Sequence record: PQ571293
Source: Escherichia phage EM1
DNA length: 44,223 nucleotides
Strand: one strand, 5' to 3'
Shown here piece after piece: positions 22,034 to 22,815 of the stretch (the stretch's first letter is position 1; each line of letters starts with the position of its first letter). Position numbers and translations under genes: made by a program. The notes under the pieces are model-generated. The model worked only from the letters and a program-made list of their open reading frames with translations, was not told the DNA's origin and searched no databases.

Positions 22034-22450
22034 ATGAAACTTTCTGATTTTTATTTCGAAGAGAAAGCACTGGTAGGCAAGAAGATGCCGATTCTGCTGC
22101 CGAACGGTGAAGACTCCGGCGAGTGGCTTAATGTTGTAAATCCGGATGCGGACGCCGCCATTAAAGCCGGGCGTGCTTTCATTATCGCGTATCGCCGCGG
22201 TTTGGCGCGTTTTGAAGAACTGGAAAAATCCGCCAAAAATTCCGGCGACTATACTGAATATAACCTGGCGGTCAACGAACTGGCGGAAGACCTCAACCGG
22301 CAACTCGCGGCGGAAGTCGTAAACGGCTGGAGCTTTGATGAGCCTTTCTCTAAGGAAGCGTTTAACAAATTGCTCGACCAGTTCAAGGCATTAGGCACAC
22401 AGGTAGCTGCGTTTCATAACGCTGAGCGCAAAGCATTACAGGAAAAGTAG
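22034..22450 (+). CDS. tail assembly chaperone (G-like)
   Basis: ORF with AAGGAT RBS immediately upstream of tape measure; downstream -1 frame is open from 22426 to 22815. Confidence 0.6.
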   Translation: MKLSDFYFEEKALVGKKMPILLPNGEDSGEWLNVVNPDADAAIKAGRAFIIAYRRGLARFEELEKSAKNSGDYTEYNLAVNELAEDLNRQLAAEVVNGWSFDEPFSKEAFNKLLDQFKALGTQVAAFHNAERKALQEK

Positions 22451-22815
22451 ACGCGCTGTACAGGTTCGCCACCTACGAGTTCGTTGATAAGCATAAAATC
22501 AGAGAGTTTGATTCTATAGCCGACGGACATGAACAGGCGCTTGTCGCGATGGGTGTAATCGATAAGAAAAAACGTGCAGCGCGACGGGGTGGGCCAGAAT
22601 GCCCGCCCCTTTTTATATCCACCTTTGAGACGTATTGCGACATTAAGTTTACGCGACACGTGCGCGAGGACACTGTAGTATTGTTTGCAAGAGAATCCGT
22701 TACGTGGCAAGACCTGAAAGCCTATCTCGATGTTACACAAAAACAGCTTAGCCTGTTCGAGATAGACATTATCATGGGCTTAGAAGCAATCTTTGAAGGT
22801 AGAAATCATGGCTGA
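22426..22815 (+). CDS. putative -1 frameshift extension of tail assembly chaperone (GT-like product)
   Basis: -1 frame opens at 22426 and runs to 22815; shifty GAAAAG immediately before the 0-frame stop TAG (22448-22450). Confidence 0.4.
   Translation, partial: AQSITGKVDALYRFATYEFVDKHKIREFDSIADGHEQALVAMGVIDKKKRAARRGGPECPPLFISTFETYCDIKFTRHVREDTVVLFARESVTWQDLKAYLDVTQKQLSLFEIDIIMGLEAIFEGRNHG

What the first reader, a model, noticed from the sequence alone, without database searches (positions are those of the whole stretch)
22426..22815. Likely programmed -1 ribosomal frameshift in the tail assembly chaperone
The chaperone ORF ends at TAG (22448-22450) right after GAAAAG, and the -1 frame is open from 22426 to 22815, overlapping the tape-measure start (22808). 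A lysyl-tRNA slip on A-AAG into AAA-A next to a stop codon would give a G-T-like fusion, the conserved arrangement in long-tailed phages, here with an unusually minimal slippery site.
Basis: partly seen in the sequence, partly recalled or inferred. Interest (0 to 1): 0.4.

Follow-up and report, generated by a model that had tools for sequence, protein, structure and literature searches.

The report
Phage tail-chaperone -1 frameshift signal
This is the ribosomal frameshift that lets a tailed phage make a short and a long form of its tail-assembly chaperone; sister phages already carry the annotation, but the signal is a bare A-AAG slip site flush with the stop codon, followed by a conserved RNA helix that pairs about 120 nt downstream.

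Summary
ORF 22034-22450 (138 aa, a tail assembly chaperone) ends GAA AAG TAG. The -1 frame is open from 22426 to 22815 and overlaps the tape-measure ATG at 22808.

The window is a Kagunavirus, about 95% identical to K1ind1 and K1G. The predicted fusion junction ...ALQEK|VDALY... is exactly the one deposited for K1G, K1H and K1ind1 in 2010 and kept in RefSeq. The frameshift is therefore already known as an annotation. I found no experimental proof of it.

Evidence from 77 metagenomic relatives (10 GenBank relatives agree):
- A_AAG is invariant and is followed directly by TAG or TAA in 76 of 77.
- The preceding codon varies: GAA, GCA, TCA, with rare AAA and GGA that create canonical heptamers.
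- Amino-acid conservation in the -1 frame starts exactly at K-V.
- No start codon is conserved; the first canonical one lies anywhere from codon 3 to codon 108.

One feature appears undescribed. The invariant GCGYTG, 5 nt after the slip site, is the 5' arm of a long-range helix supported by covariation. In the window it pairs 22452-22461 with 22574-22583. Its 3' partner sits at about +130 in this clade and about +200 in the others. A strong terminator-like hairpin (22586-22609) follows the helix.

The parts
22034..22450 (+). Gene G: tail assembly chaperone, 138 aa, 15.5 kDa, zero frame, stop TAG
   Evidence: ORF list. Pfam Phage_TAC_4 at E=7.8e-6. PHROG 15027 positions 1-138 at E=1e-70. Annotated as tail assembly chaperone in K1ind1 and fTaEco03. 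Mass.
22441..22447 (+). Shift site G_GAA_AAG. The conserved core is the tetramer A_AAG (22444-22447). tRNA-Lys re-pairs from AAG to AAA.
   Evidence: A_AAG is invariant in 77 of 77 relatives. The A at the synonymous third position of the preceding codon is invariant in 67 of 67 distinct sequences. The preceding codon is GAA in 60, GCA in 13, TCA in 1, AAA in 2 (giving A_AAA_AAG) and GGA in 1 (giving G_GGA_AAG). The -1/0 overlap is as short as 15 nt in relatives, which confines the shift to the last five codons.
22448..22450 (+). TAG stop of G. It is flush with the shift codon and lies inside the 4-5 nt spacer.
   Evidence: TAG in 59 and TAA in 17 of 77 relatives. The single exception is AAG TTA TAG. 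TGA is never used, although GTG would also encode Val in the -1 frame.
22447..22815 (+). T segment in the -1 frame: 122 codons plus TGA. The fusion GT is 22034..22447 joined to 22447..22815, 260 aa, 29.6 kDa.
   Evidence: Pfam Phage_TAC_18 at E=2.5e-18. PHROG 15027 positions 135-259. Amino-acid conservation begins at K-V. Codon-position diversity in the -1 frame is 0.27/0.24/0.54. There is no conserved start codon; the first ATG/GTG/TTG lies at codon 3 to 108. Fusions built the same way for K1ind1, K1H and K1G/fTaEco03 are exact matches to deposited proteins.
22452..22461 (+). 5' arm (CGCGCUGUAC) of the long-range helix. It begins 4 nt after the shift site.
   Evidence: Duplex energy is -20.0 kcal/mol with 22574-22583. 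It appears in the MFE of 22448-22625 (z=-4.38, 0 of 200 shuffles as stable). RNAalifold recovers it. In the clade alignment 85.3% of cells are paired against 23-51% in slid controls, with 5 compensatory pairs. It explains the invariant third-codon positions at 22455 and 22458.
22574..22583 (+). 3' arm (GUGCAGCGCG) of the long-range helix
   Evidence: CA(G/A)CGC is an island of invariant nucleotides inside a protein linker that varies (alignment A5). It covaries with the 5' arm: GCGCUG/CAGCGC against GCGUUG/CAACGC.
22586..22619 (+). GC-rich hairpin GGGGUGGGC-CAGAAU-GCCCGCCCC followed by UUUUUAUAUC. It looks like an intrinsic terminator and starts 2 nt after the helix.
   Evidence: It has the most G-C pairs (8 of 9) of any terminator-like hairpin in the window. 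Hairpin energy is -19.2 kcal/mol. It recurs in several lineages with different outer-stem sequences. Covariation support is moderate. Function was not tested.
22808..25087 (+). Tape measure protein gene. Its ATG overlaps the end of T.
   Evidence: PHROG 1538 at E=2e-185. The start corresponds to the annotated start in K1ind1.

Best explanation
The feature is a programmed -1 ribosomal frameshift of the phage G/GT tail-assembly-chaperone type.

Most ribosomes translate gene G (22034-22447) and stop at TAG 22448, giving the 138-aa chaperone. In a minority, the single E. coli tRNA-Lys slips back one base on A_AAG (22444-22447), from AAG to AAA. The next codon read is then GUA (Val). Translation continues in the -1 frame to TGA 22813-22815, giving the 260-aa fusion GT (...ALQEK-VDALYRF...).

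The slip is most likely stimulated by an RNA structure that starts 4-5 nt after the slip site. This is a multi-branched domain of about 130 nt, closed by a 10-bp long-range helix (22452-22461 with 22574-22583). It would resist unwinding at the ribosome entrance while GAA and AAG occupy the P and A sites. The logic is that of IS3 and IS911, which combine an A_AAG-type site with a downstream structure.

The flush stop codon probably adds a second opportunity. Peptidyl-tRNA-Lys could slip in the P site while UAG waits for release factor. The stop codon also ends G immediately in ribosomes that do not shift.

Shown here: the ORF geometry, the homology, the conservation of the site, the absence of a conserved start codon, and the helix with its covariation. 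Inferred: that the helix is the stimulator, the contribution of the stop codon, and the efficiency of the shift.
For: Geometry.

Family: both halves match one fused family and the Pfam TAC families.

Conservation of T: 493 phage records keep T open in the -1 frame.

The slip site in 77 relatives (T 38-98% identical):
- A_AAG is invariant, including a synonymous A that the zero-frame protein does not require.
- A stop follows directly in 76 of 77.
- Rare variants create the canonical heptamers G_GGA_AAG and A_AAA_AAG.

Translation of T only as a fusion:
- -1-frame amino-acid conservation starts at K-V.
- The first canonical start lies at codon 3 to 108.

Prior annotation: fusion proteins built with this junction are exact matches to ADA82368/YP_009597303, ADA82316 and ADA82267/QNO11960.

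The helix:
- Searches cover the window's clade.
- Searches cover the other clade, where a 14-bp helix has 93.2% of cells paired against 21-50% in slid controls.
- The 3' partner switches between clades. Mean duplex energies are -17.3 against -7.6 kcal/mol in one clade and -7.7 against -20.3 in the other.

Literature:
- A_AAG is the best Z_ZZN tetramer in E. coli. It gives 5.6% with the IS3 pseudoknot and about background without it (PMC4066793).
- NNA_AAG hexanucleotide sites are known in cdd and IS1222 (PMC5009743).
- One-tRNA P-site slippage occurs when the A site is slow to fill (PMC6771820).
Against: I found no experimental evidence for any member of this phage group: no GT band, no junction peptide, no reporter assay.

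Several depositors annotate T as a separate gene with a CTG, TTG or ATG start. One paper states there is 'no canonical slippery sequence' (PMC6776780).

The P-site codon GAA, and even more so GCA and TCA in relatives, cannot re-pair well in the -1 frame.

The role of the helix rests only on its position and conservation. The internal arms of the domain are poorly conserved. No Rfam family matches.
Confidence: 0.85

Rival explanations
1. The mechanism is purely a 'shifty stop'. Peptidyl-tRNA-Lys slips from AAG to AAA in the P site while the UAG/UAA stop waits in the A site. No contribution from RNA structure is needed, and the long-range helix serves another purpose such as mRNA stability, 3'-end formation or control of tape-measure expression.
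For: The stop is flush with A_AAG in 76 of 77 relatives. The preceding codon (GCA, TCA) often cannot re-pair, which argues against a tandem slip. One-tRNA slippage needs no downstream structure (PMC6771820). With AAG in the P site, the first base pairs of the helix would already lie inside the mRNA channel (inference).
Against: The 5' arm of the helix sits at the classical 5-nt spacing. It stays fixed while its 3' partner moved by about 70 nt between clades. That pattern points to the position next to the slip site as the selected feature. A_AAG without a stimulator is near background in E. coli reporters (PMC4066793), although those constructs had no adjacent stop.
Confidence: 0.25
2. T is made as a separate protein by independent initiation or by termination-reinitiation. 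Candidate starts are the conserved CTG/TTG at 22456 (6 nt after the stop) or the ATG at 22549.
For: Codon 4 of T is always YTG. AGGA lies 12 nt upstream in the window. Several GenBank records annotate T this way. Gene callers produce 88-aa and 110-aa versions.
Against: The invariant G of YTG is now explained by helix pairing. CTG is a very poor start codon in E. coli (general knowledge). The SD-like GGA is absent in the GCA_AAG and TCA_AAG lineages. The first canonical start ranges from codon 3 to codon 108, yet residues 1-35 are highly conserved. This rival does not explain the invariant A at -3 or G at 0. In lambda the G part of GT binds the tape measure and the T part binds the tail tube protein (PMC5009743), so T alone would lack the tape-measure contact.
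Confidence: 0.06
3. RNA polymerase slippage on the A run produces an mRNA with one base added or removed, and this mRNA encodes the fusion.
For: Transcriptional slippage gives equivalent products in some systems (PMC5009743).
Against: The run is only 4 A in the window and 3 A in the GCA_AAG and TCA_AAG relatives. This is far shorter than the runs known to slip (general knowledge).
Confidence: 0.02

Closest known systems
Annotated ORF21A/21B (K1ind1, K1G), ORF19A/19B (K1H) and TE3_022/023 (fTaEco03) of Kagunavirus
   Same: Same genus, about 95% nucleotide identity, same two ORFs and the same junction (...EK|V...). The deposited fusion proteins equal fusions built at this site.
   Different: Nothing essential differs. 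The window's own 260-aa GT sequence is not in the protein collection. The annotations give no signal or mechanism.
Phage lambda G/GT and the conserved tail-chaperone frameshift of long-tailed phages (Levin 1993; Xu, Hendrix & Duda 2004, as reviewed in PMC5009743)
   Same: Two overlapping ORFs lie directly upstream of the tape measure gene. A -1 shift occurs near the end of G, with AAG to AAA re-pairing of tRNA-Lys. The product is a minor fusion protein.
   Different: Lambda uses the canonical heptamer G_GGA_AAG. Here only A_AAG is conserved, it is flush with the stop codon, and a long-range helix follows. The tail tube gene is separated from G by a block of minus-strand genes.
A_AAG / NNA_AAG sites of IS3, IS1222 and B. 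subtilis cdd, and the IS911 three-way-junction stimulator
   Same: A_AAG tetramer or hexamer, a spacer of about 5 nt, then a structured RNA. The MFE structure here is a basal helix closing two arms, which resembles a three-way junction (PMC4066793 and PMC5009743).
   Different: The basal helix spans 112 nt here and about 176 nt in the other clade. There is no conserved upstream SD-like element. No Rfam family matches. The gene context is a phage tail chaperone, not a transposase.
Phage T7 gene 10A/10B frameshift
   Same: A phage -1 frameshift that depends on a 3' element more than 200 nt away, located in a transcription terminator containing CCCC (PMC5009743). Here the distal arm of the helix abuts a terminator-like hairpin ending in CCCC.
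   Different: The slip site differs (G_GUU_UUC in T7). The T7 long-range effect is unexplained, and no pairing of the kind seen here is described in that review.
Luteovirus (BYDV) and dianthovirus long-distance frameshift stimulators
   Same: Base pairing between a sequence next to the shift site and a distant 3' sequence.
   Different: Those are eukaryotic RNA viruses with kilobase distances and bulge-loop kissing. Here the distal sequence forms the basal stem directly.

Membership tests
Phage G/GT tail assembly chaperone frameshift | Two overlapping ORFs immediately upstream of the tape measure gene | tested here: met
   G is 22034-22450, T is 22426-22815 and the tape measure ATG is at 22808.
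Phage G/GT tail assembly chaperone frameshift | Downstream ORF in the -1 frame, conserved as protein from the overlap onward, with no start of its own | tested here: met
   Conservation starts at K-V. The first canonical start lies at codon 3 to 108 across 77 relatives. The codon-position diversity signature is 0.27/0.24/0.54.
Phage G/GT tail assembly chaperone frameshift | Canonical X_XXY_YYZ slippery heptamer in the overlap | tested here: not met
   The window has G_GAA_AAG. Only A_AAG is conserved. Canonical heptamers occur in 3 of 77 relatives. Distant homologues in other genera do use T-rich heptamers or runs.
Phage G/GT tail assembly chaperone frameshift | Sequence membership in tail assembly chaperone families | tested here: met
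   Pfam Phage_TAC_4 and Phage_TAC_18 are above their cut-offs. PHROG 15027 matches both halves.
Phage G/GT tail assembly chaperone frameshift | G and GT are both produced at a fixed ratio and both are required for tail assembly | not testable with these tools
   I found no proteomic or genetic data for Guernseyvirinae.
Z_ZZN tetramer / NNA_AAG hexanucleotide -1 frameshift sites | A_AAG in the zero frame, in a host with a single tRNA-Lys | tested here: met
   A_AAG is invariant. E. coli has one tRNA-Lys for both AAA and AAG (PMC5009743).
Z_ZZN tetramer / NNA_AAG hexanucleotide -1 frameshift sites | Downstream stimulatory RNA structure at a spacing of about 5-8 nt | tested here: met
   A covariation-supported helix starts 4-5 nt after the site. 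Its stimulatory function was not tested.
Z_ZZN tetramer / NNA_AAG hexanucleotide -1 frameshift sites | Upstream SD-like stimulator, as in dnaX, IS911 and cdd | tested here: not met
   Only 5 of 53 distinct sequences have an anti-SD duplex of -6.6 kcal/mol or stronger. The window's best is -1.9.
Shifty-stop / one-tRNA P-site slippage | [quoted passage not shown] | tested here: met
   TAG or TAA is flush with A_AAG in 76 of 77 relatives. Kinetics are not testable here.
Intrinsic (Rho-independent) terminator (for 22586-22619) | GC-rich stem-loop followed by a U tract | tested here: met
   The stem has 9 bp with 8 GC pairs, a 6-nt loop and the tail UUUUUAUAU.
Intrinsic (Rho-independent) terminator (for 22586-22619) | Transcripts actually end there | not testable with these tools
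   This needs 3'-end mapping in infected cells.

The most novel reading that the evidence does not exclude
The recoding signal may have three parts that have not been described for tail-chaperone frameshifts:
1. a bare A_AAG;
2. a flush stop codon;
3. a long-range helix spanning 110-180 nt, whose 5' arm is fixed next to the slip site while its 3' partner has been rewired between clades.

In the window's clade the 3' arm lies 2 nt from a strong terminator-like hairpin. Frameshifting, formation of the 3' end of a short G transcript, and read-through into the tape measure gene might therefore be physically coupled. Only frameshifted ribosomes translate this stretch. This would resemble the unexplained dependence of T7 gene 10 frameshifting on its terminator.
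Probability: 0.2. Interest if true: 0.6.

Novelty: already known. Interest (0 to 1): 0.3.

Why it matters
As an annotation the finding adds nothing, because sister phages already carry it.

It does settle a real inconsistency. Many Guernseyvirinae records, and one paper, treat T as a separate gene because there is 'no canonical slippery sequence'. The comparative data show that T has no start of its own and pin the shift to A_AAG.

The long-range helix, with compensatory changes and a switched partner, is a testable candidate stimulator. It would explain how a tetramer that is nearly inert on its own could reach a useful frameshift rate. It also shows why frameshift predictors that fold only 50-100 nt downstream miss such signals.

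Tried and rejected
1. Folding only 90-105 nt downstream gave no conserved structure. This was a false negative caused by the short window. It was corrected by duplex scans over 250 nt and by longer alignments.

2. An upstream SD-like stimulator is not conserved.

3. Independent start codons for T were rejected.

4. Transcriptional slippage was rejected because the A run is too short.

5. Rfam and tRNA scans of the window returned nothing.

6. Literature:
- 'Kagunavirus' with 'frameshift' returned no papers.
- PMID 25663216 (the Jerseyvirinae paper) and the paper on hexanucleotide -1 frameshift motifs (DOI 10.1093/emboj/cdg465) are not held.
- The Ro145clw proteomics paper lists a 'tail assembly chaperone' of 95.5 kDa, which is a different protein.

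7. I first treated the invariant GCGYTG as a possible rRNA-pairing site or as a non-canonical start codon. Helix pairing explains it better.

8. The motif and the ORF length are not significant on their own.

Full report
**Observation.** The + strand ORF 22034-22450 encodes 138 aa and ends ...CAG GAA AAG TAG, with TAG at 22448-22450. In the -1 frame, stops lie at 22417-19 and 22423-25. The frame is then open for 129 codons, to TGA at 22813-15. The tape-measure ATG is at 22808, so the two overlap as ATGGCTGA. Length and motif alone are weak evidence. A run of at least 129 codons has a chance of about 0.4% per starting point. AAAGTAR occurs 13 times in the window against 11.9 expected.

**Identity.** The window is a Kagunavirus (Guernseyvirinae), an E. 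coli siphophage. The region is 94-97% identical to K1ind1, K1G, K1ind2/3 and many others.
- The zero-frame protein matches Pfam Phage_TAC_4. The -1 frame matches Phage_TAC_18.
- Both match one fused PHROG, 15027 'tail assembly chaperone'. Positions 1-138 match at E=1e-70 and positions 135-259 at E=2e-70.
- The next gene is the tape measure (PHROG 1538, E=2e-185).
- The tail tube gene (18266-19438) is separated from G by a block of minus-strand genes. The same arrangement is annotated in K1ind1.

**Already annotated.** K1ind1 (RefSeq and GenBank), K1H (GenBank, 2010) and fTaEco03 carry a joined CDS at this position. I built fusions by reading through AAG and stepping back one base. The K1ind1, K1H and K1G/fTaEco03 versions are exact matches to ADA82368/YP_009597303, ADA82316/YP_009168853 and ADA82267/QNO11960. 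Other depositors annotate T as a separate gene with a CTG, TTG or ATG start. The Shashou announcement states there is 'no canonical slippery sequence' (PMC6776780). I found no experimental evidence for this phage group.

**T is translated from the overlap and has no start of its own.**
- tblastn with the 129-codon -1 frame finds 493 phage records, 491 of them covering at least 80%.
- In 10 GenBank and 77 IMG/VR relatives (T 38-98% identical), the -1 frame is always open for 119-122 codons after the junction.
- -1-frame amino-acid conservation begins exactly at K-V (KV[DEKA]ALY.FA). The -1 frame upstream of that point is not conserved.
- Residues 1-35 contain 13 invariant positions.
- Codon-position diversity downstream is 0.27/0.24/0.54 in the -1 frame.
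- The first ATG/GTG/TTG lies anywhere from codon 3 to codon 108 of about 121.

**The slip site.**
- A_AAG is invariant in 77 of 77 relatives.
- This includes the A at the third position of the preceding codon, where the zero-frame amino acid would allow other bases (67 of 67 distinct sequences).
- The preceding codon is GAA in 60, GCA in 13, TCA in 1, AAA in 2 (giving A_AAA_AAG) and GGA in 1 (giving G_GGA_AAG).
- The stop follows directly in 76 of 77: TAG in 59, TAA in 17, never TGA. The one exception reads AAG TTA TAG.
- In some relatives the -1 frame opens only 15 nt before the stop. This confines the shift to the last five codons, where A_AAG is the only shared slippery motif.
- Distant homologues of G in other genera use T-rich heptamers or runs with longer overlaps. 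The A_AAG-stop arrangement is therefore specific to this lineage.

**The stimulator.** My first folds of 90-105 nt found nothing conserved. There is also no conserved upstream SD-like element. One anomaly remained. The third codon positions of T codons 3 and 4 (GCG YTG, window 22453-22458) are invariant in 62 distinct sequences. Every other third position in codons 2-35 has a diversity of 0.26-0.73. Scanning 250 nt downstream resolved this. The segment is the 5' arm of a long-range helix.

- *Other clades (K1H, Eta, Tsm2, Jersey and others; 38 distinct sequences).* Positions +6..+19, counted from the G of AAG, pair with +196..+209. The pairing is codon against codon: Ala-Leu-Tyr-Glu-Phe against Lys-Phe-Ile-Gln-Arg. 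Of the cells, 93.2% are paired against 21-50% when the partner is slid. There are compensatory changes such as UAU/AUA to UAC/GUA, and CAU/AUG together with AAA/UUU. No shuffle out of 500 reaches the observed values. RNAalifold finds the helix independently.
- *The window's clade (21 distinct sequences).* Positions +5..+15 pair with +126..+136. Of the cells, 85.3% are paired against 23-51% slid. The covariation score is 0.297 against 0.156 shuffled (0 of 500) and at most 0.111 slid. Five pairs show compensatory changes, including GCGCUG/CAGCGC against GCGUUG/CAACGC. RNAalifold agrees.
- *Conservation of the 3' arm.* The 3' arm is an island of invariant nucleotides inside a variable protein linker.
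- *Partner switching.* In the window's clade the mean duplex energy is -17.3 kcal/mol for the proximal partner and -7.6 for the distal one. In the other clade the values are -7.7 and -20.3.
- *The window itself.* The helix pairs 22452-22461 with 22574-22583: 10 bp, -20.0 kcal/mol. The MFE of 22448-22625 is -64.2 kcal/mol with z=-4.38 and no shuffle out of 200 as stable. It shows the helix closing a two-armed domain.

My rough estimate from the window's codon usage is that the required codon choices would coincide by chance in under 1% of lineages. These choices include GCG, YUG, UAU, the rare AUA, and CGC.

**Hairpin.** Two nucleotides after the helix lies GGGGUGGGC-CAGAAU-GCCCGCCCC followed by UUUUUAUAUC (22586-22619). 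Its energy is -19.2 kcal/mol. It has the most G-C pairs of any terminator-like hairpin in the window, and it lies inside a coding region. The other strong ones lie at or near ORF ends. It recurs in several lineages with different outer-stem sequences and is absent in others. Covariation support is moderate, and one slid control scores higher. Whether it terminates transcription, stacks on the helix, or both is unknown.

**Mechanism.** I conclude this is a -1 frameshift by tRNA-Lys on A_AAG.
- E. coli has a single tRNA-Lys that pairs more strongly with AAA than with AAG (PMC5009743).
- A_AAG is the most efficient tetramer in E. coli. It gives 5.6% with the IS3 pseudoknot and about background without it (PMC4066793).
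- NNA_AAG hexanucleotide sites are known in cdd and IS1222.
- The helix begins 4-5 nt after the site. This is the geometry in which a structure meets the ribosome entrance while GAA and AAG sit in the P and A sites (inference from the IS3, IS911 and dnaX logic).
- The flush stop may add P-site slippage while the A site waits for release factor. One-tRNA slippage of this kind needs no structure (PMC6771820).
- Both routes give the same peptide, so sequence data cannot separate them.

**Comparison and novelty.** Functionally this is the lambda G/GT system, and it is already annotated in the same genus. It fails the 'canonical heptamer' criterion but meets the others that could be tested. Its signal resembles IS3 and IS911: an A_AAG-type site, a spacer, then a junction-like structure. 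The difference is a basal helix spanning 112-176 nt. The proximity to a terminator-like hairpin recalls the unexplained terminator dependence of T7 gene 10 frameshifting. I found no description of the helix in the papers searched, though that search was limited.

**Verdict.** The finding is real and correctly interpreted, but it is already known as an annotation. The signal architecture is the part worth an experiment.

Noticed in passing
window 22586-22619 (+): A terminator-like hairpin with the most G-C pairs of any in the window (9 bp, 8 GC, then UUUUUAUAU) lies inside the T coding region. It is 139 nt after the slip site and 2 nt after the 3' arm of the long-range helix. It uses GGG, CTT and ATA codons. 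It recurs in several lineages with covarying outer stems and is absent in the Sciku and Jersey types.
   Followed up: partly
window 22453-22458; relatives L012-L091 at +6..+11 from the slip G: GCGYTG is invariant at synonymous positions in 62 distinct sequences. This was first unexplained and was then shown to be the 5' arm of the long-range helix.
   Followed up: yes
window 11581-11601, 19443-19462, 31097-31116: Three copies of a near-identical palindromic terminator-like hairpin, AAGGCCCC-N3-5-GGGGCCTT, each lie just after an ORF end. Two of them were also scored on the opposite strand.
   Followed up: no
L026 695-704; L061 and L064 695-704: Rare relatives carry the canonical heptamers G_GGA_AAG (L026) or A_AAA_AAG (L061, L064) at the same position. 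L055 is the only relative whose stop is one codon later (AAG TTA TAG).
   Followed up: partly
GenBank relatives L002, L004, L005, L007-L011: Annotation is inconsistent. T is called as a separate CDS with a CTG or TTG start 5 nt after the G stop, or with an internal ATG. Only K1G, K1H, K1ind1 and the fTaEco/fKuEco phages carry the joined CDS. In SS3e (L010, L039) the G frame is open for only 51 codons, which suggests a sequence error or a truncation.
   Followed up: partly
L092 (Vibrio phage 1.207.B), L093 (Pseudomonas phiH1), L094 (Serratia Tlacuache): Distant homologues of G also have a -1 frame T ORF. Their overlaps are 58-115 nt. L092 and L093 carry T-rich heptamers or runs (T_TTT_TTC and a T7 run) that are not flush with the stop. 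No obvious slippery motif was identified in L094.
   Followed up: partly
window 19467-21881 (-): A block of minus-strand genes interrupts the tail module between the tube gene and the chaperone gene. It holds a 184-aa ORF of unassigned function, a polynucleotide kinase, a DNA repair exonuclease and a superinfection immunity protein. G therefore starts a new + strand transcription unit after the 21882-22033 intergenic region.
   Followed up: no
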